Positions 1 to 58,910 of a stretch of DNA of 64,000 bases are shown here, piece by piece. Every line of letters starts with the position of its first letter. The first letter of the stretch is position 1. The translations under genes and the position numbers were made by a program. This DNA is from Chrysomallon squamiferum (taxonomy: Eukaryota > Animalia > Mollusca): positions 17,112,001 through 17,176,000 of the forward strand of contig CM022672.1 in the NCBI GenBank assembly GCA_012295275.1, given 5' to 3'. The notes beneath the pieces are model-generated. The model was not told the origin of the DNA. It worked only from the letters and a program-made list of their open reading frames with translations, and ran no database searches.

Positions 1-222
1 CAATCGTCCCTGAAGCTTCGTTCATACCAACTGCAAACGTAACATTTTCGATGGAACTTGACTGGAAATCTTCTGTATCAGTTGCAGTACCTGATGTAGC
101 AGTTAACTGAACTGTTACTGCTGGAGAATTAGATGCTGTGTTTGATCTCACCAGTGTGAATGTTGCAGAGCCAGCACTCTCAGGTACAGATATTGTTACA
201 GATTTAAATTTAATGAGTGGCA
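1..222 (-). CDS. Gene A exon 4: Calx-beta repeat N-half (C9-type), truncated by window
   Basis: ttttccag|TG CCA CTC ATT AAA; PLIKFKSVTISVPESAGSATFTLVR; 2 differences in 222 nt versus gene C 47325-47546. Confidence 0.9.
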
Positions 223-2231
223 CTGGAAAAGATGGAATGTGATAAAAGGTAAAAACCAAGCTTGTCAACATCTCTAACTGAAAACAACAGCTCTGTACAA
301 ACATTTAATGAGTGGTAAATATCAGGAAAAAATAAATATAAAATTACATAAAATTAACACTAATTTATTAATAACACATAGAGCGTAGTTAAACAAATAA
401 AACCATCAGTAGGTCAGTATTAACAATGTAGGTTAAGACATAGTTAATATCCTCAGAACGTGAAATTAACATAAAATAACACAGAAACGAATAAACTAAA
501 TAGAATGACTATTTTATGTGCACCTGTCAAAATCATTAAACTGACATAGAGTAATATAGAAAACAGCAAACTGAGTACAATTTTTATATGAAACTGTCCT
601 AACCATACAATTTAAGGTAATTAATATAAGGTAATTAAGAAATCAGTAAACTGGCCTAATCATGAAATTAGCATAAAGTAAGACAGAAAACTGAATAGGA
701 ATCAGTGTTTTTCTTTTTTTTTAATAAAGCGATTACTGACATGAGTATTTGTAGAGAAAACAAATGACACCAGTGACTAGTAGTTATATGTAATACAACA
801 CTGCTGATTTAATTAAATTTATAACTTATAAATCTTTACAGCTGATCTAAACATTAGGACTGAAAACAAAATCTAAACTTGATATACAAGCGTTCACATA
901 ACTCACGGTCATTGTCGTGTATGGTAACAAAAGTCTTTTCTGGCCCGCTGAAATACCAACCAGTACGTATAATTTCAACTTCAAACTCTTCATCAGGTTC
1001 TTGTATCTATGGATTTAAAATTTATTAATAATATGTATTACTTTGAGTAAACATGGAAATCTATATTTATCTCAAATTTCCTTTTTAAGTTCTTGGACAT
1101 GAGGACAAAAAAAAAAAAATTAAAAATTAAAAATTAAAAAAAAAAATTATGAAACGTTTCCTATAAAATTAAGAATAAAATTAAAACCTTTTGCTGTAAC
1201 ATATTTCTAAAGCACAGTTTTAGTTATTACACGTCACTTTTGCTAATGTCAGTAACTTATTTATCAGTTCGTGCAACAATACAAAAAAGTACGCATACCA
1301 CGTCATCTACTATAATGACTTCAAATGAAGCTTCAGTCTGAGAGTCAACAAAATTGACAGAAACCGGTAGCTTAGGAATTCTGTAATCACTTGAAGATGC
1401 TGTTTTACCGGTAACTTTTAATTTCACTTCCGTGGAACCAGGAAATTGGTTATTAAGTGGTTGACGTGTCAGTGTTACTGAGACATTACCTCCAGCTTCG
1501 TCAACATCGAAACCCCTCGACGTCAAAAATACGGTAGGTCCTGAAAAAAAAAAAAAAAAATAATAATAATAATTAAAGCAAACAAAACAAAACAGGTGAG
1601 GTAAATTATTTCATAATTTTAAGTGGCCTTCATCTTCTCGAACTGAGTTAGCTCCCTTTTTCAAATGAAATACAGGTACTGAAATACGTTTTTAATAATA
1701 ATACAATGATAAAAAGAAACAAAAAAAAAAAAAAAAAAGGCAGGAAAAACATTTGATAAACATATATCTAAAGTTGTGTGGGATCCAAGTTAGAATACTT
1801 TTTTTTTATTAATAATTATATTTTTGAGGGTTTTCATTTTATAATCATCATTCATTTTAATTATTGCTCTTTTTGTTTCTTAACATAAAATATTTTTTGA
1901 TATAGGTGGCAATGTAGATCATTTTTTTTTTTTTTTCGCAAAAGTCACAGATTTGCCATCTCGTACCGTTTAGTATTAACTAAACTTAAATCGTTTTAAT
2001 TTGAAGGCAAATAATATATATTATATACACACACATATACATATACATATCAGTTTCTGAAATAAAAGAGACGTTTTGGATCTCAAAATATAGGAAATAT
2101 TAGTATTCATTTTAATATTTCCGACAATCGGTCTGTATTTCTAAGATCTTTTTCAAAATGATTTGTTAATATTAGAACATTTTCTTTTATAATATACATA
2201 TATATAAGGCAATGTTCTAACGCACGCACAC

Positions 2232-2305
<74 letters not shown>

Positions 2306-3812
2306 TCGGAAATTGCAAGATCAAATTAAAGTGTTATCTTTGCAGAAATAGTCGAAATATATTTAGCAGATTGCGAGATTATTGCTTTATTTGTATTTGT
2401 CGACAGTAAAATAGTTGTAACATCACTTATTGAAGAACCCATAATTGTATAGGTGTGTGAGAAAAATATTAATTAAAATAAAGCCATAAAGTGCTTTTTT
2501 GTTGTTGTGGAATCCATTTCGGAAAAATAAAATTGAAAGCATTTGTTATTGTCAATAATGGACAATCAAGGTTCGCGAAAATGGGTCACGTAACCCAGTT
2601 CAACATACCGATTTATTCTTTTGACTGAAAACGACAATTATTAGTAAACAAACATCAGCCTGAAAAAACAAATTGAATTAAACTTAGTCAAACTGAAACA
2701 AACTGAATAATCCCTCAATGTGTTCTTATAAAACTATGAAACCTAATATTAATGCGTATTTATGGTTCTGTAATCAGTTAGTCCTTTTTCTAATGGCGAG
2801 AATGGGGAGATTGAGTCTTTCAAATTTAAACATCGAGTTGATTCTCTGATTAAATTTCATCTAATACAATAATTAAAAAAAAACGTATCTTTAGAAACCA
2901 TTTCATTCGACAAATGATAGTGGTGTCGCCGTTAAATCTAGCTTTCATAGTTTTCTGCCGGCACGAGTGCGAGAATTACAAGGAATGTAAAAAAGGGAAA
3001 AAATAGGAAATTAAAATCATACTAAGTACGTTTATAAAAAAAACAAAAAAAAACAAAATGTTCCACCAGCGAAAGGAGACAGCGACATCTGTGGTCGACT
3101 TCCCAGCACCAGTGATCAATCATTTGTTTGTTTTTTTCCCTGTAGTAAAAGTAAGCCAATGACTTTAGGCTGAGATAAGGTGATTAAATGCAGTAATAGA
3201 CATTCAATAACAGTGATTCTAACAAAATAGATGTCCGATTTACGTCCAAATCGATTTAAAACCAACTGGAATGTCGTCGTAAGTTGATTTCTTTAAATCA
3301 TTTTAAGGTAATTTTCTGTTTATTTTAAAACGTAGGTTTTTCAATGAATGCAAATTAACGCGAAGTTCAATTACATATGCTTAGTGATAAACATGATTGC
3401 GTACTGAAATAAAAGAGAACTCCTAGAAAAATGCAATATTTGTGAAAGGTAGATCTTTTATATTTTTTATATATTTAATTAGTGCATTTGTAAAGTCTGT
3501 ACAAAACGACAAGTCGTATGAATAAACCAAAAAATTTCATAATTATTTTCTTATTTTTGCATCTTGAAACAAAATTCATCTACAGTTATTCATAATCATC
3601 TTTAATTAATGGATTTTGGAAGGAAAATTTTTAAACGTAACGATTATGTTCTTCTAAAACACTTACTGAAGATTCTAGAAAGGAAAACAAACGAAATTTT
3701 CTTTTTTTGTATGGTTACGTAAACGAAAACGAACATTAATCACACACACACACACACATCAAATACCCTCAAGGCTTATATATTATAAAACTGAAAACAG
3801 TTTGATAATAAT

Positions 3813-3904
<92 letters not shown>

Positions 3905-4292
3905 ATTAGAAAACCAATATAAGGTGAATTGTTTTAACCATTTGTGGTTAATCGAGTTATGCATATACAAAATTGCAATCCTTTTTTCAAAATTATATCC
4001 ACCGCTCCTCTCTCTTTTCTGACACCTTTGTATGCTGTCCTGCAATGTGTATTCAGTTATTAAGTTTGAACTTAAATAGCTACTGAAAATAATATTATTT
4101 ATTTTTCAAAGTGTTCCTGTCCTAGACGACAAATATCGAAATTGAATGTATACTGAAGGTATAACTGAGAAAATAAATCAGTGTTAATTTGTAAACTAGA
4201 TTTCAAGTGATAATAAATATCTTACTCTGTGTGAGGCAGACTCTAGATGTAAGACACACAAGAAAGAGGAATCCCAACCACCGGACGTCCAT
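1..4292 (-). CDS. Gene A (partial, runs off left edge): signal peptide + Calx-beta repeat protein, paralog of genes B and C; exons 4226-4292, 1299-1540, 907-1006, <1-222
   Basis: Canonical AG/GT boundaries with consistent phases (1,0,1). Signal exon MDVRWLGFLFLVCLTSRVCLTQ is homologous to the first coding exons of B and C. The EGF/ZP/TM part is presumed to lie outside the window. Confidence 0.85.
907..1006 (-). CDS. Gene A exon 3: Calx-beta repeat 1 C-half
   Basis: catag|ATA CAA GAA CCT...GAC C|GTGAGT; IQEPDEEFEVEIIRTGWYFSGPEKTFVTIHDND; 100 nt, phase 0->1. Confidence 0.88.
1299..1540 (-). CDS. Gene A exon 2: Calx-beta repeat 1 N-half (C3-type, hypervariable)
   Basis: tttcag|GA CCT...GAC GTG|GTATGC; VDEAGGNVSVTLTR...TASSSDY...IIVDD; 242 nt, phase 1->0. 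Confidence 0.9.
2234..2300. repeat. (AG)n microsatellite
   Basis: Direct reading. Confidence 0.95.
3806..3905. repeat. (AAT)n/(AAAT)n microsatellite
   Basis: Direct reading. Confidence 0.95.
4226..4292 (-). CDS. Gene A first coding exon: signal peptide
   Basis: tattctag|cctcatcATG GAC GTC CGG TGG...CAG A|GTAAG; hydrophobic 22 aa. Confidence 0.85.
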
Positions 4293-10600: not shown

Positions 10601-11057
10601 ACTTTGTTGGATAAATCATATCAGTTTTCATAATCTTTCATTTTATTTATTACAGTAATAGACAAATGTATTTAAAATATCTCCAGGTTTTCTGAATAAA
10701 CTATCAATATAATTAAATAAAAATATTTTGATCATTTAATAAAAATACCTTAATAAGCTTTCGCTGATATTATATATAAAATGAGACGTCTGGATCGACA
10801 CTTATCGCAGTTTCAAATGTCTCATTTGCCATGTATAAAAATATAATAAAAGTAAAATACATTATTTTCATTACAGTAAGAATGCATACATTTTTATCTA
10901 TATTACATATTTGTGCCATGCATAATAGTAACATTTATTTTCTCTGTAATTATTATAGACAATTTTAAATCAGCGGATTTTCCTATATAATGTCAGTAAA
11001 ACCACCTCATAAAAAATATAGATCATATTTGTAGCTGTTTTTTTGTCCAACAGAAAC
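7380..11057. repeat. Segmental-duplication flank downstream of gene B, homologous to about 26150-32180 downstream of gene C
   Basis: Shared colinear blocks, e.g. aaaataaaacaggttt, cgggtaattatgtttcaaaacgttgatttg and the near-identical 9314-10950 versus 30410-32080; ends approximate. Confidence 0.85.
7537..7611. repeat. (TC)n microsatellite
   Basis: Direct reading. Confidence 0.95.
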
Positions 11058-11995: not shown

Positions 11996-12024
11996 ATATT
12001 TTTTTTTTTTTTTTTTTTTTTTTA

Positions 12025-12885
12025 CAGGAAGAATAGATTTTATCTTTAAATGTGCTTTTAATAATAATTCAACATCAAAATAGTTTTGATTTAATTTAAA
12101 AATAAATAAAATATAGTTAGTATACCAAACAAGGAACAGCAGAGTTTATATATAAATGTGGCTTTAATAAAGACAACGACAAAATTGTGAAACCCGTAGT
12201 GATCTAATAATAAAGAAAATATTGTTAGTACCCCAAATAAGCAAGAAAATCTATTATACTTAAATGTGCTTTTAATAAAATCTACGACAAAATTCCCAAA
12301 TCCACAGTGATTTAATAATAAAGGAAATATTGTTAGTACACCAAACAAGGAAGAAAAGCAATTATACTTTAATGTGCTTTTAATACAATCCAATGACAAA
12401 TTTGTCAAACCCGCAGTGATTTAATAATTAAAAATATATATTGCTAGTTCACTAAAACATTTTTTATTAGAGTATAAGGAAGAAAACATATTATTCTTAA
12501 ATGTGCTTTTAATACAATCCAATGACAAATTTGTCACACCCGCAGTGATTTGATAATAAAGAAGATATTGTTAGTACAACAAACCAGGAAGAAAATATTT
12601 TACTCTTAAATGTGATTTAATAATAAAGAAAATAGTGTTAGTACACCAAGCAAGGAAGAAAACCTATTACTTTAATGTGCTTTTAATAAAATCCAACGAC
12701 AAAATTCCCAAACCCGCAGTGATTTAATAATAAAGAAAATCCTGTTAGTACACCAAGCAAGGAAGAAAAGCTATTACACTTTAATATGCTTTTAATAAAA
12801 TCAAGGACAAAATTCCCAAACCCGCAGTGCTTTAATAATTAAAATATATATATTCCTAGTTCACTAAAACATTTTTTTAATTAGA
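12025..12885. repeat. Minisatellite, about 107-110 bp unit, about 8 degenerate copies, just 3' of the gene B stop
   Basis: Recurring aatgtgcttttaata...gacaaaattcccaaacccgcagtgatttaataataaag...gttagtacacc at about 12051, 12157, 12264, 12373, 12502, 12611, 12676, 12786. Confidence 0.85.
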
Positions 12886-12967: not shown

Positions 12968-13167
12968 TTACTGGTAAGCAACTTTTGTTGGGAGTCTGAT
13001 GTTGTCACCTTTACCCGTGTTCTTACGTCTGATCAGACAACAGGAAAGGATGATGCTGAGAACCACGAAAAGAAGCAGAAACACGCCCATCACACCCATG
13101 GCCGCCAGTATCCCAGAATTGAATTCATTTTCACACGACTGAGCTGACTCATGTTTAATCATAGAAC
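12968..13167 (-). pseudogene. Gene B last exon: transmembrane helix + short cytoplasmic tail
   Basis: GILAAMGVMGVFLLLFVVLSIILSCCLI followed by RRK stop-transfer; ends PTKVAYQ*. Confidence 0.88.
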
Positions 13168-13505
13168 CTGCGAAAATGTAAGTATGAGACAGACCATAAG
13201 GTGTTAATGATTATTTTAATTGAAAAAATGTAATATTGTTTCTCTTCTTATTTTAATGCTTATAAACCAAATGCTATATCATATTTATATCAAGACTACA
13301 TATATCATTAGATAAAGGTGAATAAGAGCTCATCTTAATGATTAGATATAAATAATATGAAATACATTCTAAATTTTAGATTTCTAAATGGAAATGTTTA
13401 TTCAAAGTGTGTTAGTGTTATCAAAACAATTTGAGTGCTTCCATTGTTGTTGGGTTCAGACTTAGCTCTAGAAGTGCAAATATTACATTACACAATACTA
13501 ATTAC

Positions 13506-13623
13506 CATCGCTGGCTACAACACGGTTACTGGCAGGATCGGATACTTTGAAAACAAAATCAACAGTCTTATCACCATAGTGATCAACAGATCGCTTCCTT
13601 CTGTTTGAAGAACAAGATGCAGG
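13506..13623 (-). pseudogene. Gene B ZP C-terminal exon with consensus furin site RRKR (13591-13602)
   Basis: PASCSSNRRKRSVDHYGDKTVDFVFKVSDPASNRVVASD; 118 nt. Confidence 0.88.
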
Positions 13624-14234
13624 CTGCAAAAAAATAAAATAAATATAAAATTATTTTCCATAAAAAATTAACTAATGTTACTGACGTTTCACTGTTATGT
13701 ATTTCAGGAAAGGTAAGTTAATAAAGCTAAGGATAATAAAATTCGTTTGACATTTTTTTTATATAGAAATGCTGTAATAAAGCTTTTCTAATAATAATAA
13801 TAGTAGTTAATGAAATAGTCTCCAGTGAAACATTTTAACTTGTGATAAAAATATCTGATAAGAAAATGTTTAAAAACTCCTCAGTATATTCTGAGAGTGA
13901 TTGTTATTAGGTTTAGTCATATGTTTATTGTATAACAGACATGAGAGATGATCTAAAAATTGTCACTTGTCAATTACTAATATAATATACGTGTGTTCAC
14001 AAAGGCTTCATAGCACAAACGACAACACTTGAGTCACTGGACTGGGAAATATACCAGATCAGCACTGAGAAGAATTAATGATTTAGTCCACACACAACTC
14101 AAGTCAGTGCTATAACTATTTACCTTCTATAGAATATATATGAAATGTGTAGTTCAGATTATCTCTGTAATCACATATTACATTTAACAATATATTAAGT
14201 TTCATGCAGAACTTTTCACAAGGAAAAAACTTAC

Positions 14235-14415
14235 CAAGTCACATGATTTCGTATCACTTTTGGGACAAAACTTAGCAACCACTCTTATTCTGATATCATC
14301 GGAATTTCTAAATTTGGGTGGTCGGAATTCAAACTCGATTTTAAGTTCTCCGTTGTCAGGGGTAACCATTAACTCAGTGGTTGGGGACATGATGCCCGCC
14401 ACATTCTTGAAGCAG
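14235..14415 (-). pseudogene. Gene B ZP-C exon
   Basis: CFKNVAGIMSP...FEFRPPKFRNSDDIRIRVVAKFCPKSDTKSCDL; 181 nt as in C. Confidence 0.85.
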
Positions 14416-14752
14416 CTGAAGAAAACAAATTTAGGAGAAAATCACCTTACATAAAATAAAACATGGAGACATACACATATTATATAAACAAAACATATAT
14501 AAAATATAAATTAATGCAGAATAATTAGGGTTTAATATTATAAAATAACATATTTTGCCAATGATTAATGTAGTTAACTTTTTGGGGAAAAAAAAATGAA
14601 GGAAAACATATCTAAATGTTTCTTTAATAGAATCCTGTTTAATTATGTTATTGATTAATTTAACTTATATCATGACACTGAAATTATTATGTTTATGTTG
14701 TTTACTTTGATTCATGTCTTGTAATTATTGCTATGAGAAATCACACAATTAC

Positions 14753-14837
14753 CTGTCCTTTACAATTGTGACTACAATGGGATCTGATTCTAAATTGTTG
14801 TCAATCATTATATCCACAACCAACAAAGCTCCAAATT
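14753..14837 (-). pseudogene. Gene B ZP-C exon
   Basis: FGALLVVDIMIDNNLESDPIVVTIVKD; 85 nt as in C. Confidence 0.85.
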
Positions 14838-14959
14838 CTGAAAATAAATAAATACACTCAGATGACATATCTTTTCTCCAAGAACTGAGACGAAAATGTA
14901 AAAGGAAATGATGTGCTTACAAACAAATGGATTTAAAATTTATCTTGATTGAAAATTAC

Positions 14960-15105
14960 CTGAGTTCTGATTGACAGAAAGGATAACCATCAGCTTTTCT
15001 CCCATTTTGATTGGTGTGTTGCTGCTGACTGCAACACCTTCCTTTGTCACACCCAAATCAAGAGGGTTTTAATCACCTTGGGCAGAGGCTTGAACTGCGT
15101 TATCC
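14960..15105 (-). pseudogene. Gene B ZP linker/ZP-C exon with in-frame TAA
   Basis: CAA GGT GAT TAA AAC CCT versus C CAA GGT CAT CTC AAC CCA; 146 nt. Confidence 0.85.
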
Positions 15106-15825
15106 CTTTAAAAGGTTAGACAAATTGGTGGGTTTATGTCATTCAGATTTTAATTTATTCTCTTAGCGATTTTGTACGCTTCTAAACAAAATTAATACAT
15201 ACATATATTTTAAATTTTTAATCAAATATATATTTTTAATTAAAGTAATATTATCTGCTTGTTTGTTTGTTTGTTTATTTATTTATTTATTTACTTATTT
15301 ATTTATTTATTTGTTTGTTTGTTTGTTTGTTTGTTTATTTTGAAGTGGGAAGATCACGATTCCAGTTATCCAACGATTATCAGTAACGGCAAAGAGATAT
15401 TTACAAAAAGTATTTAAAAATATAACGAGTTTAGTTACAATACATCAAATGTTACCTTTCTAAATAGAAAATTTACTTTGTAAATCAAATACATTTATCA
15501 TACGTAAGAAAGGAAGAAAAAAAAGAACATAGCAATATAATACATCATTTATTATTTTGCATGTCAGCAATAAAAGAAGAAAAAAAACACCCAAAAACAT
15601 CGCCAAAAATAAACACACACAACATTTCGCTCTGAATGAAGTAAGAAATACAGGAAATATCAGCAATGAAATAATTTATCAGATAGTATATAATATGGAT
15701 TAAAAATGTGTTGCCTGTGAATGAAATGGGATGCTAAACATTATAAAAATCAATTCCATTCGCTATCAGTAATCACAAAAATAATGTTCATTTAAGATAG
15801 TAATTCTGAAAAAATTTAAACTTAC

Positions 15826-15977
15826 TGACTTGTAGATACTGGACTGATAAGAGATACGAGTGTGATGTTTTTGGTCATATCAAAAAGACATCTGGCTTTA
15901 ACAAACTCATCATAAACAAATTGGAACTGAGAATTATACTGCACGTATATCAGACGATGTATTTGTAAAATGTTATC
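15826..15977 (-). pseudogene. Gene B ZP-N exon 2
   Basis: DNILQIHRLIYVQYNSQFQFVYDEFVKARCLFDMTKNITLVS; 152 nt. Confidence 0.85.
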
Positions 15978-16453
15978 CTGAGTGAAGAAAAAACAAAAAT
16001 CAAGAGCAAGAGGCTCTCATCAACATTCATTATTTCTATAGTTATTTATTTATGTATTTAAAATGTTTTTATTGTACAAATTAGAAAAAAACAAAACAAA
16101 AGAACAACAATAAACTATCTTAGACTATACAGATTTAACATGTTAAGATAATTGTTCGAATTTTCAATGTAATTTGATATGTATACTGTTTACATTTTTT
16201 TACTTAATGCGTTATACTACTATTGTTGAAATTCTTATTTCAGCTGACTATATCTCAATACGATGACGAATTGTTATTTGTTTTTTGACATCATCGAATG
16301 TAATTTGCAGAGGCCAGTCTTTGCTTAAATTATAAGAAACATGGCTTTATGTTCCAATTAAAACATTTATCAAATATGCTGTATCAGCAGAAGTATTATT
16401 ATAAGAATACAATAACAGCAACATCAAAAAAAAAAAAAAAAAAAAAATAAGTA

Positions 16454-16499
<46 letters not shown>

Positions 16500-16674
16500 T
16501 TAATTGCTCTTGCTTTAAAATATTTTACCAGTCGTGATTATGTGATTTTCTCATATTTAAAAGATATTAATTTTAAATTTATTTCTATTTAAGATACGCA
16601 AGTCTGAAGAATATTTTTAAATAGTATTTGCTCAAAACATTTAAAAAGCTACAACTTTTTTTTAACATACTCAC

Positions 16675-16886
16675 CATGCTCTGAGATGATACATTTCCGC
16701 AGTTGGTGTCAGTATTTGGTATGATCTTCACTTTACCGCTGGTAAAATTATCAGGCATTCCTTCCTGGTTGGCAAAATCGTCAAATGTGCATGTATCTTC
16801 ATAACCATAGGCATAAACCTTTCCTTGAAAATTTCCTATGGGATCAATCTGAATAGACATCTAGTCTTTTCCACAGATCACTTTGT
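16675..16886 (-). pseudogene. Gene B ZP-N exon 1 with in-frame TAG
   Basis: KVICGKD*MSIQIDPIGNFQGKVYAYGYEDTC...TNCG; 212 nt. Confidence 0.88.
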
Positions 16887-17487
16887 CTGTTAAATTATTA
16901 CTTTTTTGATGTATTATTTATTTAATGAATGTAAAGGTAATAACATAAACGTGTAAAAGTAATAGACATAAACATAGAAAAATTGTTGAATAATTAATAT
17001 GCAGTCACAGCCATACTCAAGTACACAAATATGCATTCATACACACAGATATACAAACATTCCGACATCTATTTAAAAACATGTTTCCAAGCACACACAC
17101 ACAAGCACGCACGCACGCACGCAGACACATATACACACATATATATAGAAAAATAATAAATATAAAGTTTTTAAATATTACCGTATCATTTGGGTACATA
17201 AATGAACAAGATAAATCTGTCTAAAATCAGTTAAGCTGTAACACATGTAGATTAGTTGACTAAAAGCGTTATGACCTGCTTTCCTTTTTATGAGAAAGTA
17301 ATATAAATGAATCTTTGCTGTTTATTATTAACAATTGTGTAAAGTGGTAGCATCAAATTTCATTATTTATGCTGCCATTATATAAAGACATTTGTGACTA
17401 TAAATACTGAAATGTGTTAGCATCATTTTAAATGTTTAATAATATAACCATACTTTCTGAGTTCTTGATATCCCCTGTTATCCTGCT

Positions 17488-17488
<1 letters not shown>

Positions 17489-17546
<58 letters not shown>
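17489..17546. repeat. Poly(A) tract in gene B intron
   Basis: Direct reading. Confidence 0.95.
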
Positions 17547-17548
<2 letters not shown>

Positions 17549-17571
17549 AAAACAAAAAGGACGATACTTAC

Positions 17572-17703
17572 ATCTAGGGAAAAGACATTTCTCTGTGTCC
17601 TCATATCCTGCATCACAGTAACATTTGGCTTTTCCATCTTCAGCTACACAGGTTCCATGTTCTGAACAACTTGTCTTGGTGCATGGATTCTTATCAACGT
17701 CAC
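17572..17703 (-). pseudogene. Gene B EGF-like exon 2
   Basis: PCTKTSCSEHGTCVAEDGKAKCYCDAGYEDTEKC (6 Cys); 132 nt, phase 1->1. Confidence 0.9.
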
Positions 17704-18199
17704 CTGCAATTAATTAATTTAAGTAACAACGAGAACAGCCGTAGTAATAATGTTAATATTGTCGATGATAATATCAACAATATAGCAATTTCGTTACAGT
17801 GAATAATAATTAATCTGAATAGCAGTAATATTTATTATTATAATAATGATGATGATAAGAATAACAACAACAAAATAATAATAGTTATAAAGATAACGAA
17901 GACAGAGTCTATACATTTTTTTTTAAATAAAGGTTTTATACATTTAGAACTCGTATTCACAATTGTTGTGACTTTCAGCTTCGTTTCGTTATTCTGATTT
18001 AAATCAGTTATTATATTTTACAATATACATTTTGTATAGATTCAAATTTGTAACATTACTCCCAATTGTAAGAACTCAAATCCTTCAGTACTTTTCTATT
18101 AAATTTAAATGCAAGTGCAAGTTTAGCGTTGTTGTGACATATTGGTTATATATAATTTTTTTCGGTGTCATATTTTGGTTACACACAATTAAATGTTAC

Positions 18200-18334
18200 C
18201 TTTAACATAATCACATTTGTATCCACCGCGAGGTGGATCTATCGCATTACATTCACAAATTCCTTTGTCATTACACACAGCACCATTGGAACACGGTTTC
18301 TGTCCAGGCCGACGACAGTCGTAGGTTGCAGGTC
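18200..18334 (-). pseudogene. Gene B EGF-like exon 1
   Basis: YDCRRPGQKPCSNGAVCNDKGICECNAIDPPRGGYKC (6 Cys); 135 nt. Confidence 0.9.
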
Positions 18335-18567
18335 CTGTTAGAGTTAACAATCATTCAACTATACAATCACTATAGAACATTATAAGAAACTGTGAAAACT
18401 AACAAAGTGACAAGATCAGCTGTCTATATTATTTAGGATTTGCAGCGTAAATAAATTAGATATTTTATAAGAGTGAGTCAGTGTTATTTTTGCTTGTCGT
18501 GTTAAAGAAAAATGTCAAGTGGTTTCAAGTTTAACATGATAAAAACATAAAGCAATAATATACATAC

Positions 18568-18670
18568 CATCATCATCCAGAACTTCTACAGATACCTCTT
18601 TCACACCGGTATTAAACTTATCTGCGTTATCGACAATAGATACTTTGAAAAATTCTGTCTTTTCTTCATT
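18568..18670 (-). pseudogene. Gene B Calx-beta repeat 4 C-half (C14-type)
   Basis: NEEKTEFFKVSIVDNADKFNTGVKEVSVEVLDDD; 103 nt. Confidence 0.85.
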
Positions 18671-18899
18671 CTACAGTATTAAAAAATATACCAGTAAAAC
18701 AAAACAAAATTACAAAACGTGATACAGAAATTCACACTAACAGTTATCTATGCAGTTGTCTTTTAACATTATTTCAAGTTTTCATTAAGAAACGTTATTT
18801 AATACTGTCAAAGCAAATAATCTTTGTATAGCAATGTATAAATTTGAATGTATTGTCCAAAAAAAGATATGTCTAGAAAATTTAACTCATTTAACTTAC

Positions 18900-19129
18900 C
18901 ATATCATCTTTAAGCTGAATTTCAATTGATTGTGTTACTTCTCCATCTGCAAAGACAAGCTTAGCTGCATCTGGTTTAATATAATCTTTGCCTGCAAGAG
19001 CTGTGTCATCAGCGATTGAAAGATCAACAGAGATTTCTCCAATCGATCCATTTGTTCTTGTTGCACTCAAAACTACTGGTCCACTAGACTCGTATGTTGG
19101 ACTCGGTACTTCCAGTGATATAGTAGGAA
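18900..19129 (-). pseudogene. Gene B Calx-beta repeat 4 N-half (C14-type)
   Basis: PTISLEVPSPTYESSGPVVLSATRTNG...TALAGKDY...LVFADGE...LKDD; 230 nt. Confidence 0.88.
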
Positions 19130-19450
19130 CTGGAAATAAATATATATGTGTCTATGTTTTTCTATATGTATGCAAAACTATATACACAAGATAATGTAAA
19201 ATTAGGTCTCTTTCAGTATGTCTGTGTGTGTGTGTGTGTGTGTGTGTCTATACATACACATATATAAATATATGACATATAATTTTAAATCACGCGTTAG
19301 TGATAAAAACAGTTCATACAACCTTCCTTCTGAGACATTGTAACCCTCCTTTATTTGTGAAAATAGAAATTAATTTTTATTTTATTTTTATTTTATTTTT
19401 ATTTTTTTTATTTTTGGCGAAATATTAGAATATAAATACAAAGTTCTTAC

Positions 19451-19550
19451 TTTCATCATCAGTAATTGTAACCACCAGGTTGTCTCCTTCCTGTGCCACT
19501 TCATTATTTTCCTTTACGCTTATTGTGAAGCTTTCATCAATTTCATCAAC
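19451..19550 (-). pseudogene. Gene B Calx-beta repeat 3 C-half (C9-type)
   Basis: VDEIDESFTISVKENNEVAQEGDNLVVTITDDE; 100 nt. Confidence 0.85.
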
Positions 19551-19783
19551 CTGAAAAGTGTAATATAAATTTTAAATTATTTATAATTATTTGTGATCTC
19601 TCTGACTGTTAAATACGAAGATTTCTTTGTTTCTCACATTTTAAAATAATTGGTTATACAGAGTGCCCTTAAGGACATAATTATTAATTACGAGCGATGT
19701 TTTCTACGAAAATGGGAAGAAAAATACTGGTTTTCTAAGCCTGAAAGTAAATTCAAAAAGTGTAAAATACAAATAATACTGAC

Positions 19784-20022
19784 TTTATCATCTAGAATAT
19801 CGATAGTCCCTGAAGCTTCGTTCTTTCCAGCTGCAATCGTGACATCTTTGATGGAACTTGACTGGAAATCTTCTGTATCAGTTGCACTGCCTGATGTAGC
19901 AGTTAACTGAACTGTTACTGCTGGAGAATTGGATGCTGTGTTTGGTCTCACCAGTGTGAATGTTGCAGAGCCAGCACTCTCAGATATAGATAACGTTAAA
20001 GATTTAAATTTAATCTTTGAAA
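19784..20022 (-). pseudogene. Gene B Calx-beta repeat 3 N-half (C9-type)
   Basis: SKIKFKSLTLSISESAGSATFTLVR...SATDTEDF...DILDD; 239 nt. Confidence 0.88.
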
Positions 20023-20840
20023 CTGGAAAAGATTAAATCGAATAGCAGGATAATACCACACTTGTCACCATCTCTAACTGAAACGAAAAGCTCTAATCAG
20101 AATATTAAAGAGTGAAAGTGTTTATTATTCGTGATGAATCAAACAGGACATTTTTTCACAAAGCAGTTCAAAGAATAATAAATACATAAAATTAACGGTA
20201 ATTCATTGAAAACATAGACGACTGTGTTGAACAAATAAGCATTAACAAATTAGATTAAGGCATTTCCAGTATAATGAATCATTGAATATAAATACAGTGT
20301 TTAAAATTTACAGAACGAACATTAACTACAAGGCTATCAAAATCTCGAGATATAGTAACTGAAGTAAAATAAAACTGCCTTTATCATGAAAATTAATAAA
20401 AAATATTACAGAAATCAGTTAATTGAATTTTATTATTGTTTTATGAAAACCCGCTCTAATCATGACATTGACATAATTTAATAAAGAAAACAACAGTAAA
20501 GTGAGTAGAAAATATGTGCAATTGTCCCAGTAATGAAAAGCTAATTAGCGTAAAGTAACGCAGACTTGTTTAGTTTGTAAATACTTTCTGAAACGAAAGT
20601 GCTACATTTATTTGTTTCTGTGATTTTCATCTGTAGTCGTTTTAATAATTGTACACAAAATTTAATCTTTTAACAGATTAACAAGTGTTACAAAGCTGCA
20701 ATTTAAGTATGTCACTGAACTAAAGCAAATAAAATACATAATTAAATAAAACGGTATCAATCTTAATAAAATGCTTTTAAGAAATTGCAAAGCAATCCAA
20801 AATAAAATAAAATTGTAAACTTACGTATCAATTTACTCAC

Positions 20841-20933
20841 CATCATCATTCTTAATTGTTATTTCGGTATTTAGTGAATTTCCTAATTTGTAATCCGAAT
20901 GTTCTTTAAGTTTCATTGTCAATGTTCGCACAA
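20841..20933 (-). pseudogene. Gene B Calx-beta repeat 2 C-half (C4-type), defective
   Basis: Homolog of C 53141-53243, but the acceptor reads ttaatttctg instead of ttaatttcag and the exon is 93 nt versus 103 nt. Confidence 0.8.
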
Positions 20934-21687
20934 CAGAAATTAAAACCAGAAATTAAGTAAACATGTCGATTAATTAAACGAATGAAAGAAGTAGTGTCTT
21001 ATGTTCAATAAATTTCCAAACATTTTGAAAGAAATTCACGAAATCAGGAATCATCTACTGAAATATATAAACCTTCACTGTAGACCATTAGCAGATATGA
21101 TTTGCGTAAAAAGAAATGAAGATTTGTGGTGTTTTATTTTATGTACAAACAAAAATTCAAAAATACAGGCAGGTTTAATTCAACTTTCTCAAAATGTTAA
21201 TAATTACATTGAGTTTCTGCGGTAAGGAAGATTACATTATGTCAACAAATGACAGTAACATTATATCAAAATTGGTCTTCTTTAATTTATATCTGACTTA
21301 AATAATGATTGATGAAAAAACCAGAATTGCAAATACATTTTTCAGATATTTACTTTAATAGAAACAGTTCAAAAACATGTTAAATATGCTATTTTGAAAA
21401 TCAAAATAGAAGTCTATAATATGAACCAGACAAAAATGAGTAACTGTTTTTCATTAAACATGGAGTAATAATTTAGGAAATATAGATAAAAATAATAAAT
21501 TCACCCTGGCTGTTACCAAATGTTTCTATATTTACTGGCGAAAGAAAATCAATCAGAAATTATTAAATCCAAATACCTATTAAATAATCAACTGCATTTT
21601 TGATGATTATCAGCCCTAATCTACATAATAAAAAAAAATATAAGTACTTTTTAGAATAAAATTTCTTAAAATTATGGAGATGCTTAC

Positions 21688-21941
21688 ATCATCGTTTTTG
21701 ATAGTGATGTTAAATAACTGTTCATCTGATGTTGTACCAGCAGCAGGAGAAGGAAAGGTAACTGCATAAGCAGTTAGATCATAATCAGCCCCTTCAGTTG
21801 CAGTTCCAGCAGTTACAGTAACGCGTACACCCAGGGCTGTTACTGATCCACCGTCTGGAAATGTTCTTACAACGGCAACTGAAAGAATTCCATTGTCTTC
21901 ATCGACTTCCTGTGAAGATGTTTTCATGTTGATTGTCGAAA
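21688..21941 (-). pseudogene. Gene B Calx-beta repeat 2 N-half (C4-type)
   Basis: STINMKTSSQEVDEDNGILSVAVVR...GTATEGADY...IKNDD; 254 nt. Confidence 0.88.
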
Positions 21942-22213
21942 CTGAAAACATGATACATTTTCAAAAAATTTATAGGAATGAGGTATTTTCTTCTTCTTCT
22001 AATAAAGCGTTTATTGACATGAGTGTTAGAAAATGTGTGAGTATTTGTTTCAGATGGATTTGTAGAGAAAATAAATAATACTAGAGTAGAAGTAGTTACT
22101 GTACAATGCAGTTACTTGAATTGATTTTCTAAGTTATAAATCATTATAGCTCATCTGAATATTAGTATTAAAAACATCTAAACGTGTAAGATACAAGAAT
22201 TCACATCACTCAC

Positions 22214-22316
22214 CATCATTGTCAAGTATGTCAACACTTGTTGTTGCACGACTTCCGACCTTATAAGCAGTGTCAGGTAGAATTTTCACCAAAAACCTTT
22301 CCTTGCTTTCTTCTAT
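22214..22316 (-). pseudogene. Gene B Calx-beta repeat 1 C-half (C3-type)
   Basis: IEESKERFLVKILPDTAYKVGSRATTSVDILDND; 103 nt. Confidence 0.85.
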
Positions 22317-22613
22317 CTGTGGATTTAAAAGTTATGAATAATATTTACTGAGCAAATATCTAAAAGCTGTTTTTATCTCAGATTTCAGTTTAAATTGTGG
22401 GTCATGGGGATGAAACAGTAAAAAGTTTTTTTTTTTTTGAATATTCGCTGTAAAACTAGAATGAAAAAAGTGTTCTATGACATTTCAACTGTTATGTTTC
22501 TTCTTTTATTTTCTTTTTTTTCTAAAGCACAATTTTAGTTATTACATGTCACTTTTCTGAAAATCAATAATTTATTTATCAGTTCGTTCAAGAATACAAT
22601 TAAAAATGCATAC

Positions 22614-22843
22614 TCTGTCATTTCTTATTGAGATTGAAACGTAAGCTTTCGTCCGATTCTCTCTAAAGTTAATAGCACTGATTCCATAATCACTTGATGT
22701 TGTTGTTACATCAGTAATTTCTAATTTCAGTTTTATGGCAGGAAGCGTTTCGCCAGCAGGTGTCGTTCTTATCGCATATATTCTGACTCGATAAGCATCT
22801 TCTTTAATGACAGTAAAGCTATCGTCCATGTTAAATGTAGGTA
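22614..22843 (-). pseudogene. Gene B Calx-beta repeat 1 N-half (C3-type, hypervariable)
   Basis: PTFNMDDSFTVIKEDAYRVRIYAIR...TTTSSDY...IRNDR; 230 nt. Confidence 0.88.
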
Positions 22844-23048
22844 CTGAAAATAATAATAATTATTATAACAACAACAACAGTAACAATAATAATAATAATA
22901 ATAATAATTAAAGCAAACGAAAGCAAGTGAGACAAAAGATTTGATAAAATGGAATCTACATTTATTTTAGTAGTCGTATGTGTTATTTAACCCAAGATAA
23001 TTTCTTTGTGATTAATACAAACCTTTTTCTAAGTGATCTTAAGAAACA

Positions 23049-23089
<41 letters not shown>

Positions 23090-23460
23090 AATAACAACAA
23101 CAGTAATAGTAATAATAATCATCATCATCATTATTATTATTATTATTATTAAGTAATAAAAAAATAAAAATAAATGTTCAATATCTCTGAGAATAACCAC
23201 GAATACGTTGAATATAAGAGAGATAACTATGTCCTAAGCATCCTCTATACAGTGATCTCCCTCTTTTTTTTCTTCTTTTTTTTTTCTCATTTTCACACGA
23301 TATTGTCCTTAACAACATACACCAGTCAATAGTAATTATGTAACTGATAAAATGAATCAATGTTGATTTGTCAAAACAAATTTCAAGAGATACCTGTTAC
23401 AACAAATAAATAAATAATATTAAAAATACAAAACAGTTAATAAGTTTTAAAATATCTTAC

Positions 23461-23530
23461 TTCCTGCGACGTGGACTGTAAATGTAAGGCACAGAACATA
23501 AAAGAGGAACCAAGACCATCTGACGTCCAT
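23461..23530 (-). pseudogene. Gene B first coding exon: signal peptide
   Basis: tattttag|ccacaccATG; MDVRWSWFLFYVLCLTFTVHVAG; A|GTAAG phase 1. Confidence 0.85.
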
Positions 23531-23988: not shown

Positions 23989-24836
23989 TGAAATTAGGGT
24001 GACGATTTCCATGTTTGGAAAGAAGGACGCAGCTCACCTATGTGTGTATGTAAAATGAACACGCATTTTTAGTTCATAATAACCAAAACACACAGACTAC
24101 AAGTTACAGTACTTGACAAGTTAATTACGAATTACTGAAGACGTCACTTTAATCAAGTGTGTTTTGTGAAAAGTTGCAGTTAATATAAAGCTGTAGAAAA
24201 CATTTTTGGTAGAATTTATTTGACAGTTGTTATGTGATGAATGCTAATTAGTTCAGATGCGTTGTTCTTATGGTTAAAAAAAAATCATTATAGGCTTATT
24301 ATATCATGGTCAAGTATGCCTTCTTCTCATATCATAGAAACGTTTACATTCTGTTTACGTAACTTTTTTAAACAAGCAGAAACTAACCAAACTGCGTTAT
24401 TCATTCCACCGTTAGTAGATGACTGTTTTTTTGTTTTTTTTTAAATACAGAAAAGAAAACAGCACATTACTGAATAAAAGAAAATGAAGGCACTTTCTGG
24501 AGCGAAAAATAGCGGAGGATTCATTCCATCTACAGCTGAATTCAGCAAACTGTAAAATACTTTAAAATATTTGTTCATTTCTTCTCGCATGGAAAGTCGA
24601 AAGAGATGTCATCGCGTGGAACATTGTCTTAATGGAACGTACAATATATTATTTTCTTTCGGATACCTTAATTCCTCTTAAGCACAGTACGAAATGGACA
24701 TTAATTAATTTTATATCAGAATAACAAAGCCAGAACTCCGAAATGCTTATTATATTGTGATGGGACGAATGTCTATTTAGTAGACATTATAAGCATTATA
24801 CCGTAGTGTTAAAATATTGTAAGAACAGGCCTGTTA

Positions 24837-24871
<35 letters not shown>

Positions 24872-25105
24872 TATGGAAGCCGTACGATAATTATAATGGC
24901 GGCGGAATGATCCTAATGATGGTGCGATTGGAAAGTGGGATAATGGTAACAACAAACACGGTCTGAAGACTGCAGGAATTCGGAGTTTCTTTACAAAAAC
25001 TTAAGGACGTTTTATATTGATTCAAATAAAGATGGAGAAACGAAAAGCTGAACTGATCTCATTAAAAGCAGCAGACAGAACTTAATTTATGATATGTTAA
25101 AATAA
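23820..25105. repeat. Duplicated upstream (5') flank of gene B, homologous to about 59390-61015 upstream of gene C
   Basis: Shared gaaattagggt, ttacagtacttgacaa, aaagagatgtcatcg, gacgaatgtctatttagtagaca and the block at 24895-24990 versus 60662-60757. Confidence 0.8.
24390..24572 (+). repeat. Dispersed repeat copy (matches 28507-28690)
   Basis: cagcacattactgaataaaagaaaatga.ggcacttt...gctgaattcagcaaactgtaaa; absent from the paralogous flank upstream of gene C. Confidence 0.75.
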
Positions 25106-25348: not shown

Positions 25349-27899
25349 TATTCCTTTAATATTTTATTCTTATTTTTATTTGTATTTTTAAATCATAATT
25401 AAAATATGTGTCCCAGTAACTACTTTAAAACAAAAGACTGTAATAATTGTTTACATGTGTATATTATAAATAAGGGTAAGGTTAATAGCGTAAAGAATAT
25501 GGGACATTTCATTTATAGCAAAATCAAATATAAAACTTAACCAAAACGTCGTGTGATGTAGAATCACATTTACCGTTTATGCTAACTCATAAAAGAAACA
25601 CAAAATATTGTTACTATCAAAAAAAAAAAAAAAAAAAAAAAGTAATAAGAACAAACAAAGAAGGAAGGAAGGAAGAAACAAAATAAATGAATGTAGCAAT
25701 AATGTTAATAATATTTTTAAAATAGTAATGATAAAATTTCTATAAATATATAATAATTATTATTTACTGGATTTCAAAACAATCCTGAACTATCAGAAAA
25801 GTCTCAAAAAAAGGTTTTTTTATATACAGTTCTAGTTCATTACAGGCTTTTTTTATAACGATGTTTCTGGCAAACTTTGCTGAGCCGACATCACTTTTCA
25901 GTCGAGCATATTTTTTTTCAGTTACAAGTTTTCATTTTTAATACTCTTTTTAAAGTTATAAAGTGAACACTCTTTGTTCTACTTTATTCATACTTGTATC
26001 AGTTCGAGTTATTATTTCATTTTTCATTTTTTTATAGCTCAGTGTTTAGTGAAGTCGCATGGAATTGCTTTCACACAAAAATATTATTAAATAACACTCT
26101 CCAGTTGGTATCCCACAAGTAATTCATAAAAGTTGCTTCCACGAATTGAATTAATAACATACATAGCTGGTATTTCACTAAATAAAAGTCGAAGAAAGAC
26201 GACTTATATAGAAGTCTGACAGTTCAGAGAAGATGAGAGAGAAATAAACGAAAGAAAAGAAATATGGTTTCTTCGTTTAGTTTTATTGTTGTCTTAAATT
26301 TGAACTGAGACGCAAAAATGAATGGTGTGAACATCGTAGATTTTTCCCAAGAACATGATGTGAATTTTAAGGAATATGAATTATCTGTGTCTCTCTCTCT
26401 CTGTCCAGCAGCTCGTTAAGCGAATAAAAGATTTAAAACAATAAATATAATCAAGTATCGAAGTTACTGAATTGTTCTAGGGCAATATCTAAATAAGATA
26501 TCTTTAAGATCTAAATTCAGATAGACATACATATATATATGTACATACAAAGAGCGTTCACCTTTGAAGACTTGAACACTCACCTTTCAGCCCAGTCTTC
26601 GTGTTACACAAAGAATGCATTCATCGCAACCAAGACATATGAAATAAACAGAGCATGTGAAATAAGTGATAATAAAAATAAAACAGGTTTCTGGGAGAGG
26701 CTTATGGAGAATATTTGGGTGCAACTAAGTAAAATATCCTGAAAAGACAAATTCGAATTCCATCTGGTTTTATTTTTTTTAAAAGACAATAAACAAGCGC
26801 TGATAATATTTGGGTATCTTTTGCTTTTCACATTTTTAAAATATTTTTAGTTCTTACATTTTATTATTTATTTATTTATTTATTTTTTTATTTTTTTATT
26901 TATTTATTTTTTTTTTTTTTTTATTTATTTATTTATTGTTTTGTTTGTTTGTTTTGTTGAGTTTTTTATTTTAATTTTAATTTTAATTTTTTTTTAGTCT
27001 TAATATTACGTGAAGGATGTTTTCGTTTGGGAAAGATATGGATGCAACAAATCTGTTTCTTTTTTTTTTTTATTAGATTTCTTTAATTATTGTAAACAAG
27101 ATGTATGAGTTGTTATAGAGAACTGGTTAAGTACATTAAATACAACACAGATGGACTGCAAACATAATACATCACATATGTAATTCACTTAATAATTAAT
27201 TGTTCGAAATGTTTCTTTAAAAATGTGTTATTATCATATTAACGGGTAATTATGTTTCAAAACGTTGATTTGACTGTAATGTAAAATTAGAGGGGGGTGG
27301 AAACTGCTCTGCCCTCACTGCAAGGTTGTTGTTATCCATTAGCTGTAAGGAATATTTTGTAGACACCTTGTTACGGACAGGAAAGTGTAACCGCACCTAA
27401 AAAACTAGTCGTGACGCATTATGATCAGGTTATTCGTCATACACCAGCGACGCTTTCTGTCCTTTCAGTTACATCTCTTTTGTGCAGTACAGTCACGGTC
27501 AGATAGCAAAGAGAAACAACAAAAATCAGCACAGCTCACAGAAATATTAGTGCGAGATCTATACTTATAATACTGTAAAAATTACAACACAATTCAGGAA
27601 TACACTATAGTGTACAACATAATATACTGCCATAGAAAAATATATATATGTGTGTGTGTGTACAGTGGTCTACTGACCTGTACAGATCCGTACAACAATG
27701 TTCATTACAATTCGATATCGTCCAATAAAGAAAGTAAAAACGGCAATAAATTTCGGAAAGCCTATTATTTCATTGTATTCATGTAGTTAACAATAAATTA
27801 ATAAAGAGAAGAATCAAGCTGTATATGTTTAATTTATATATAAATATAAAGGTTATTTCAGATCGGCATATAATCTTCTTTATATGCGTCTATATGTTG

Positions 27900-28326
27900 A
27901 GAAACTCCATATAAAGATGACTGAATATTTTTGTTTTGAAATACTGAGAAGAGAACCACACATTCCGACATTATTTATTATTACATACATTTTTTAATTT
28001 TTTTTTTTTTTTTTTTTTAATACTGGGCTTAATGAACCATAACGTTGTTGCAATTTTTTACGTTGTATACCACTCAAAATAAAGTTTATTTTACTCCTTG
28101 TTTGTTTGTTTATTTGTTGCTGGGTTTTTTTTTTTTTTTTTTTTTTTTTCTTTCCAACATATCACTTGGCCGATATAATATGTTTTTACCTGTGTTATTG
28201 AACTTAAAATATTTATTATAATGATTTTGGTATGTTTCTGAAGTGCTGAAAAACAAAGACAAATATTCAAAAATGCTAACGGATTAATACGTTTATGACT
28301 GGATAATACATTTATCACTAGAAGAA

Positions 28327-28376
<50 letters not shown>

Positions 28377-31300: not shown

Positions 31301-32010
31301 TACATACATAAATATATATACATATAGGCACACATACACACACTCACATATATACATATATACGCATCATAGATTGAAAGTTCCATGCATACATACTTAT
31401 TTACATTAAATTGTAACCTGGAAATGATAATTTTTTACCTTTGTAAAGTTATATCATAGATGAGAACTAAAGTCAAATAAATTTCACCATCACAAATTGC
31501 TGTCAGTGAAATGAACACTATTTCATGAATGGTGTTTTAAAATAAAGTATTTGACACCGAATAATTGTTAATAATTAAAATATAATTAATTGTTATTAAA
31601 CAAATACTTACTGATAACTTCACAAAAGACAGACATAGGTTTTCATATAAAATGGTATTCTAGTTTACTTGCAAAATGGTTACTGTGGTTCACAGATTTC
31701 TTATGTTTTTACACTTAAAATTTACTTTGTTGGATAAATCATATTTGTTTTCATAATGTTTCATTTTATTTATTACAGTGATAGACAAATGTATTTAAAA
31801 TATCTCCAGGTTTTCTAAATAAACTATCAATATAATTATATAAAAATGTTTTGATCAATTAAAAAGAAATACCTTAATACGCTTTCACTGAAATGAGATT
31901 TCTGTATCGACATTTCCTCGCAGATCCAAATGGCTCATTTGCCTTGTATAAAATATATTATAATAAAGGTAAAGTACATTACTTTCATTACAGTAAAAAT
32001 ACACAAACTG
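27900..32010. repeat. Tandem duplication downstream of gene C (copy 1 about 27900-30409, copy 2 about 30410-32010)
   Basis: 29200-30409 repeats as 30820-32010; the junction cacaaactg|aaactccatag joins the end of one unit to the start of the next. Confidence 0.8.

Positions 32011-34457: not shown

Positions 34458-58910
<24,453 letters not shown>

What the first reader, a model, noticed from the sequence alone, without database searches (positions are those of the whole stretch)
22614..22843. Hypervariable tip domain with near-zero synonymous divergence: signature of positive selection
Seen: over the first 52 gap-free codons of this exon (B 22614-22843 versus C 54987-55225), 32 residues differ, yet all 20 conserved residues use identical codons. 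A (1299-1540) versus C shares 17 residues, 15 of them with identical codons. B versus C identity over the exon is about 34%. The flanking introns still align easily (A gtatgcgtacttttttgtattgttgcacgaactgataaataagtt; B gtatgcatttttaattgtattcttgaacgaactgataaataaatt; C gtatgcatacttaattatatacttgcacgaattcataaataagtt). Established: exons that diverge faster than their introns are typical of gamete-recognition, venom and immune proteins (lysin, the N-terminal VERL repeats, conotoxins). Inference: this repeat, the first after the signal peptide in A and B, is a specificity-determining binding surface.
Basis: partly seen in the sequence, partly recalled or inferred. Interest (0 to 1): 0.85.

Follow-up and report, generated by a model that had tools for sequence, protein, structure and literature searches.

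The report
Hypervariable domain on snail ZP protein
In a cluster of three snail genes for a membrane-anchored protein built of Calx-beta repeats on a zona-pellucida-type base, one repeat has changed two thirds of its amino acids between two copies while its silent DNA sites changed no more than in the rest of the gene, which marks it as a likely binding surface under an evolutionary arms race, although the copy that was flagged is now a broken gene.

Summary
The counts are exact: 20 of 20 conserved codons are identical over the first 52 (26 of 26 over the exon); A versus C is 15 of 17. The exon is the first half of a Calx-beta domain in three tandem paralogs: signal peptide, Calx-beta repeats (14 in C, 4 in B), two EGF, ZP-like module, furin site, TM. 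B versus C gives dN 0.84, dS 0.15, omega 5.7 (p 2.5e-4; 0.0014 allowing multi-base mutations); other repeats give dN 0.15. Core and acidic motif residues are kept; the surface changes.

Corrections: dS is ordinary for this gene pair, not near zero. The repeat is third, not first, in C. Pairs with A are not significant alone. B has two stop codons and a dead exon, but its decay looks too recent to explain the signal, which is strongest on intact C.

The one homolog found is a Gigantopelta aegis (vent snail) protein labelled ADGRV1-like. My searches found no paper describing this architecture. The partner is unknown: microbe (about 40%) or gamete (about 25%). No expression or allele data were obtained.

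The parts
22614..22843 (-). B1a: the flagged exon, first part of the hypervariable Calx-beta domain in gene B
   Evidence: no Pfam hit itself but aligns with the other repeats and shares introns with C3a
22214..22316 (-). B1b: second exon of the same domain; 61% nucleotide identity to C3b
54987..55225 (-). C3a: counterpart in intact gene C, third repeat
   Evidence: Pfam PF03160 E 3.6e-8, above cutoff; AlphaFold pLDDT 88, best Foldseek matches are NCX/CALX Calx-beta domains
54546..54651 (-). C3b: second exon of repeat 3 in C
1299..1540 (-). A1a: counterpart in gene A, first repeat after the signal peptide
   Evidence: weak Calx-beta hit E 0.065
907..1006 (-). A1b: second exon of the domain in A
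1..4292 (-). Gene A, 5' part: signal-peptide exon 4292-4227, repeat 1, then a C9-type exon (222-1) that runs off the window
   Evidence: 1-315 is 99% identical to C 47325-47639
12968..23530 (-). Gene B, probable pseudogene: signal-peptide exon 23530-23462, 4 Calx-beta repeats (C3-, C4-, C9-, C14-type), 2 EGF, 6 ZP exons, TM exon 13167-12968
20841..20933 (-). B2b, broken exon: no AG at the acceptor position and 10 bases shorter than C4b (out of frame)
16861..16863 (-). in-frame stop in B's first ZP exon
15069..15071 (-). in-frame stop in B's third ZP exon
34458..58910 (-). Gene C, intact, about 2,070 aa: signal-peptide exon 58910-58839, 14 two-exon Calx-beta repeats (58411-39799), EGF exons 39370-39236 and 38853-38722, ZP-like module in six exons 38169-35112 with an RRKR site, TM exon 34687-34458
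   Evidence: 1968-codon exon chain with 0 stops; Pfam EGF and CUT_N; ZP-C by ESM Atlas; collinear with G. aegis XP_041379155.1

Best explanation
The flagged exon is half of one Calx-beta domain in a family of snail proteins with Calx-beta repeats, two EGF domains, a ZP-like module and a membrane anchor, and its surface residues diverged between gene copies far faster than its silent sites, most likely because it binds a fast-changing foreign partner, probably a microbial surface. Shown: architecture, excess amino-acid change, spared core, birth-and-death of copies (repeat number 14 vs 4, recent exchange between A and C, decay of B). Inferred from family knowledge: the protein is secreted to an epithelial surface, cut at the RRKR site or kept tethered, the ZP module polymerises into a surface matrix, and calcium at the conserved acidic motifs stiffens the repeats into a rod that presents this domain away from the membrane, much as DMBT1 presents SRCR repeats on a ZP base. 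After each duplication selection would favour a new binding surface on this one repeat while the stalk and base stay conserved. B evolved such a surface and was then lost.
For: B-C omega 5.7, dN 0.84, dS 0.15, p 2.5e-4, about 0.005 after the 21 exon pairs examined; p 0.0014 with double and triple mutations allowed. Other Calx exons pooled omega 0.57, EGF+ZP 0.45. Three-copy site test LR 38.8; maximum 6.1 in 76 null simulations; control trio A2a/B3a/C9a LR 6.0. Branch C alone omega about 10, p 0.015. Fourfold sites differ at 3 of 21 versus 65-68% between old repeats, so ancestry is recent across the exon. Changed residues: 10 of 24 core/motif vs 40 of 52 surface, Fisher p 0.004. E14, D51, D78 invariant in 19 of 19 repeats. 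C3 and B1 are the least acidic repeats (net -5, -1; other complete repeats -8 to -17). Identity to the G. aegis homolog falls from 61-79% in ZP exons to 37-65% in repeats. For a microbial partner: analogy only (DMBT1, PMC7736800 passage), plus an unlinked lead, one G. aegis gene labelled Calx-beta that is enriched in the symbiont-hosting gland (log2FC 3.46; PMC7895826 Supplementary Data 2).
Against: Three sequences of 76 codons from one genome. A-C omega 2.25 (p 0.06) and A-B 1.57 (p 0.25) gap-free, about 1.1 with a gapped protein alignment. Branch B alone is not significant (p 0.18) and free-ratio is no better than one-ratio (p 0.23). Exon b alone has NG86 dS 0.65 above dN 0.53, and neighbouring B2a-C4a has dS about 0.5, so ancestry is mosaic. 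A1 is as acidic as other repeats (-10). No ligand, tissue or polymorphism data. The gland-enriched G. aegis gene could not be tied to XP_041379155.1. The G. aegis model lacks its N-terminus, so no ortholog of this repeat was available.
Confidence: 0.4

Rival explanations
1. Same selection, but the partner is a gamete protein: an egg-coat or sperm-facing ZP protein that works like abalone VERL, with distal repeats tuned to sperm.
For: ZP base, furin site, TM and selection limited to a distal repeat match VERL, where selection is on repeats 1-2 only (PMC2704960 passages). G. aegis has 17 annotation rows naming zona pellucida.
Against: Divergence here is between copies in one genome, with gene death, which is more typical of immune families (own knowledge). 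Repeats are Calx-beta with introns and only about 30-40% alike, not a homogenised VERL-type array. No ovary or testis data.
Confidence: 0.25
2. Selection for the copies to differ from each other: a self-recognition or homophilic adhesion code (like sponge aggregation factors), or a new role in a shell, cuticle, adhesive or sensory matrix.
For: Sponge AF genes are tandem, Calx-beta-rich, phase-1 shuffled and polymorphic (PMC5400394, PMC11670116 passages). The EGF-EGF-ZP-furin-TM base matches molluscan EGFZP shell proteins (PMC9290575); scallop byssus proteins mix EGF and Calx-beta (PMC9168380).
Against: No wreath domain. 'Calx' is absent from the searchable part of the peltospirid shell and sclerite proteome supplements (one file cut, one unreadable). 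A purely structural role does not predict omega above 2 on one repeat.
Confidence: 0.2
3. No real positive selection: relaxed constraint in a dying gene, gene conversion that reset silent sites, and luck in a small sample.
For: B is broken and has more derived amino-acid changes than C against G. aegis (37 vs 17, p 0.009). Exchange between copies occurs and affinities switch around the exon. 0 of 26 silent changes is on the lucky side.
Against: Relaxation gives omega near 1, not 5. Two stops in 795 codons imply about 0.02 substitutions per site since death (0.002-0.07) against dN 0.33 on B's branch. Intact C carries dN 0.42. B1a's core is still conserved (14 of 15 core sites hydrophobic in all three copies). 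The longest identical run is 11 bases and silent sites inside changed codons are shared at 9 of 12, so patchy conversion between old repeats does not fit; conversion of the whole exon would shorten the time and raise the rate.
Confidence: 0.15

Closest known systems
Gigantopelta aegis XP_041379155.1 (labelled 'adhesion G-protein coupled receptor V1-like')
   Same: Collinear homolog: nine Calx-beta repeats matching C8-C14 types, two EGF (58-66%), ZP exons 61-79%, same furin site, TM and tail.
   Different: The model starts mid-array with no signal peptide, so it has no counterpart of the hypervariable repeat. The label is a misnomer: one TM segment and no 7TM Pfam hit.
Molluscan EGFZP shell-matrix proteins (PfuEGFZP, Lottia LUSP-17)
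   Same: Signal peptide, two EGF, ZP, furin site, TM; tandem duplication (PMC9290575 sections 5-6).
   Different: 4-14 Calx-beta repeats inserted before the EGFs; 'Calx' does not occur in that paper's text or held supplement; phylogenetic membership untested.
Abalone VERL
   Same: Molluscan repeat array with positive selection on distal repeats only; ZP base recalled.
   Different: VERL repeats 3-22 are over 95% identical and contiguous without introns; here repeats are Calx-beta, two exons each, old and distinct.
Sponge aggregation factors (AqAF, MAFp3/p4)
   Same: Tandem cluster of secreted Calx-beta repeat genes with phase-1 module borders, varying domain number and excess non-synonymous variation.
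   Different: AFs end in a wreath domain and use three-exon, all-phase-1 modules; this family has EGF-ZP-TM and an internal phase-0 intron.
DMBT1/gp340
   Same: Repeat array on a ZP base that binds microbes (PMC7736800 passage).
   Different: SRCR and CUB domains instead of Calx-beta and EGF; no sequence relation tested.

Membership tests
Calx-beta domain (PF03160) | Profile match | tested here: met
   C3a E 3.6e-8, above cutoff; 4 of 16 exon-a halves pass the cutoff and 6 more hit below it; B1a has no hit. Profile of 19 repeats hits NCX1 CBD12 at E 8.8e-17.
Calx-beta domain (PF03160) | Beta-sandwich fold | tested here: met
   AlphaFold of C3a (half domain) pLDDT 88, five strands; top Foldseek rows are all Calx-beta structures, probability 1.0 but E 0.015 or weaker.
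Calx-beta domain (PF03160) | Calcium binding at acidic motifs | not testable with these tools
   Acidic motifs aligned to NCX1 are present; B has Asn at position 77. Binding not measured.
ZP-module proteins | ZP-N with four cysteines | tested here: inconclusive
   Four cysteines at 4, 32, 62, 100, kept in G. aegis; CUT_N profile matches over 4-103 of 103 but below cutoff, E 0.0014.
ZP-module proteins | ZP-C domain | tested here: met
   ESM Atlas top hits for the fifth ZP exon are ZP/ZP-C clusters (0.93, 198 of 256 features; 10 of 10 in the same clan). Four cysteines instead of six; I read this as loss of the C5-C7 pair, which has precedent (PMC7456536 passages). No Pfam ZP hit; single-sequence fold failed.
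ZP-module proteins | Signal peptide, furin site, TM segment | tested here: met
   Read from sequence: hydrophobic N-terminus, RRKR after the last cysteine, hydrophobic segment near the C-terminus; no dedicated predictor run.
Molluscan EGFZP family | ZP domain falls in the EGFZP clade | not tested
ADGRV1/GPR98 | GAIN and seven-TM region | tested here: not met
   Single TM segment then stop in C, B and the G. aegis protein.
Sponge aggregation factor | Wreath domain; near-uniform intron phase | tested here: not met
   C-terminus is EGF-ZP-TM; introns alternate phase 1 and 0. No wreath profile was run.
VERL | Homogenised, intron-free repeat array; lysin binding | tested here: not met
   Repeats are Calx-beta, split by introns, about 30-40% alike. 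Lysin binding untestable.

The most novel reading that the evidence does not exclude
A snail-specific family of variable surface receptors that reached the DMBT1 and VERL design independently using Calx-beta modules: one swappable, hypervariable module on a calcium-stiffened stalk and ZP base selects which bacteria (possibly symbionts) the animal binds, and the repertoire turns over by duplication, module deletion, conversion and gene death.
Probability: 0.2. Interest if true: 0.85.

Novelty: new variant of a known kind. Interest (0 to 1): 0.6.

Why it matters
ZP proteins with rapidly evolving distal repeats are the textbook case for gamete recognition, and ZP proteins with SRCR arrays guard mucosal surfaces. 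A Calx-beta version was not found in the papers searched, and its one database relative is mislabelled as a GPCR. It points to one 110-residue domain, with three natural variants about 35% identical yet of recent common ancestry, that can be expressed and tested for binding. If the partner is bacterial it would be a candidate specificity factor in a snail group known for chemosynthetic symbionts; if it is a sperm protein it would be a second molluscan solution beside VERL.

Tried and rejected
No whole genome is held for this window, so further paralogs were not counted. No sequencing runs were obtained, so expression, alleles and the reality of B's lesions in reads stay open. Homolog searches with the ZP1 and EGF1 exons found nothing although the G. 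aegis protein is 73% and 66% identical there, so these searches miss real relatives. The HMMER scan with the ZP5 exon returned 3 repetitive proteins without a ZP-like match, judged spurious. The profile search gave 91 proteins; none lists a ZP Pfam family, and only P0005 was compared in detail. PDB sequence searches with C3a and with the G. aegis ZP stretch: 0 hits. Single-sequence AlphaFold of that stretch: pLDDT 32, uninformative. ESM Atlas for B1a: only unnamed clusters, recognition below threshold. Thirteen other open frames in the window: no convincing Pfam hit. Five look-ups in earlier findings: nothing. My first guess of a cephalopod source was dropped. An amino-acid tree does not group C3, B1 and A1; their kinship rests on introns and silent sites. 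Intron identity alone is a weak measure here: shuffled AT-rich flanks also align at about 70%. The exon-b site test (LR 16.3) used hand-placed gaps and hit a boundary, so I give it little weight.

Full report
OBSERVATION. The coordinates are right: B 22843-22614, C 55225-54987, A 1540-1299, all minus strand, phase 1 in and phase 0 out. Over the first 52 codons B and C share 20 residues, all with identical codons; over the exon, 26 of 26. A versus C gap-free gives 15 of 17 and A versus B 9 of 13. Codon bias does not explain it: old repeats within C share a codon at 842 of 1916 conserved residues.

ANATOMY. The window holds three tandem paralogs. C (58910-34458) is an open chain: signal peptide, 14 two-exon repeats, two EGF exons, six ZP-like exons, RRKR, one TM segment. 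The repeats are Calx-beta (Pfam; NCX1 structures at E 8.8e-17; model and Foldseek). The base is ZP-like: ESM Atlas places the fifth exon among ZP-C clusters and the N-half has four conserved cysteines with a sub-threshold CUT_N match. B has four repeats, of the C3, C4, C9 and C14 types; A shows the C3 and C9 types before the window ends. The flagged repeat follows the signal peptide in A and B but is third in C.

B IS BROKEN. It has in-frame stops in ZP exons 1 and 3, and exon B2b has lost its acceptor and 10 bases. It also has more derived amino-acid changes than C against the outgroup, 37 versus 17. These lesions could not be checked in reads.

SOURCE. The profile search returned Gigantopelta aegis XP_041379155.1, a peltospirid snail. 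It is collinear with C8 to the tail, with ZP exons 61-79% identical. The window is therefore most likely from a related gastropod; the species was not determined. The G. aegis model lacks the N-terminal repeats.

SELECTION. Pairwise codon ML for B1a-C3a: dS 0.15, dN 0.84, omega 5.7, p 2.5e-4; 52 codons only: omega 4.1-4.2, p 0.007-0.011; both exons of the domain: omega 2.5, p 0.006-0.009. This is the only one of 21 exon pairs with omega significantly above 1. Pooled other Calx exons give dN 0.15, dS 0.26; EGF plus ZP dN 0.09, dS 0.20. So the anomaly is a five- to nine-fold excess of amino-acid change; dS is ordinary (0 of 26 vs 68 of 566, p 0.06). The test survives multi-base mutations (p 0.0014) and the interval for omega runs from about 2 to over 20. 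With all three copies, one-ratio omega is 2.6 (p 0.003), M2a beats M1a by LR 38.8, and both B (dN 0.33) and C (dN 0.42) branches are long; only C is significant alone. Null simulations peaked at LR 6.1 in 76 runs. Against this: pairs with A are not significant (omega 2.25 and 1.57 gap-free; about 1.1 with a gapped alignment), exon b alone has dS above dN by counting, and three sequences give imprecise site estimates.

ARTEFACTS. Decay of B: a nonsense clock gives about 0.02 substitutions per site, far below B's branch dN. Conversion: it happens here (A 1-315 is 99% identical to C9a), and which pair is closest shifts around the exon. But fourfold sites differ at only 3 of 21, including 3 of 12 inside changed codons, against about two thirds for old repeats, and the longest identical run is 11 bases. 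Recent shared ancestry of the whole exon fits; patchwork between old repeats does not. The exon (61%) is more diverged than its downstream intron flank (77%).

WHERE THE CHANGES FALL. Classing columns by the 16 other repeats, 10 of 24 core or motif sites changed against 40 of 52 surface sites. Using strand alternation, outward positions on the first, second, fourth and fifth strands and the following loop changed at 22 of 24 sites, and the third strand with its following segment at 7 of 16 (grouping chosen after seeing the data; that the former strands form one sheet is recalled, not computed). So the core is spared, with a hint of one preferred face. C3 and B1 are also much less acidic than other repeats.

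MECHANISM. Shown: a modular ZP-based surface protein whose distal repeat diversifies under selection, in a family with birth and death. Inferred: calcium-stiffened stalk, ZP matrix, and a foreign ligand. I put positive selection at about 85% and split it among a microbial partner (40%), a gamete partner (25%) and paralog-specific adhesion or matrix roles (20%). The microbial choice rests on analogy with DMBT1 and on within-genome turnover. The only expression hint is that the single G. aegis gene described as 'Calx-beta domain-containing' is in the list of oesophageal-gland-enriched genes; I could not show it belongs to this family.

LITERATURE. Searches for 'Calx-beta' with 'ZP domain' and with 'zona pellucida' plus 'cephalopod' returned 0 papers; with 'gastropod', 'octopus', or 'mollusc' plus 'egg', 1, 1 and 2 papers, none on this family by listing or passages; none of the 20 listed of 47 contains 'calx'. 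The library lacks most subscription journals. Seen: PMC9290575 passages, sections 5-6 and a supplement search; PMC7895826 passages, supplement searches and the file description; PMC11871041 passages and supplement searches (one file cut, one unreadable); passages only of PMC5400394, PMC11670116, PMC2704960, PMC7456536, PMC7736800, PMC9168380, PMC10815962. The main supplementary PDF of PMC7895826 was too large to read. Lysin, conotoxin and uromodulin comparisons are recalled.

VERDICT. A real feature, correctly counted, with a mostly right reading that needs three corrections: dS is normal, the domain is not always the tip, and the flagged copy is dead. It is a new variant of a known design. 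Interest 0.6.

Noticed in passing
window 1-315 vs 47325-47639: A's second repeat exon and flanks are 99% identical to C9a while A's first repeat is about 35-40% identical to C3 in protein: very recent exchange between A and C.
   Followed up: partly
window 17563-17708 vs 38713-38858: EGF2 exon is 98.6% identical between B and C, above the gene average, another likely conversion tract.
   Followed up: no
window 21941-20841: Skipping both B2 exons would keep the frame and give B the same repeat order as A (C3-type then C9-type); all repeats are phase 1-1 modules, so alternative splicing could vary stalk length. The ZP stops would remain.
   Followed up: no
window 4292-4227, 23530-23462, 58910-58839: The three signal peptides start with the same six residues but are only 31-40 of 60 bases identical without gaps.
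   Followed up: partly
window 38169-35112: The ZP-C half has four cysteines rather than six, the same in G. aegis; probably loss of the C5-C7 pair.
   Followed up: partly
window 8200-12000, 24400-25100, 26700-32100, 60400-61000: Intergenic segments repeated in direct and inverted orientation at 70-95% identity (e.g. 9332-10957 vs 30488-32076, 87%; 11097-11231 vs 24572-24438, 95%), possibly non-autonomous mobile elements or shared regulatory DNA.
   Followed up: no
window 12094-12839: Tandem array of about 108-base units just downstream of B's stop codon; 42-base arrays at 48730-48977 and 42/88-base arrays at 59011-59236 upstream of C's start.
   Followed up: no
P0005 (XP_041379155.1): Annotated as ADGRV1-like but is a Calx-beta/EGF/ZP/TM protein with a truncated N-terminus; repeats 1 and 3 group with C8, suggesting an internal duplication.
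   Followed up: yes
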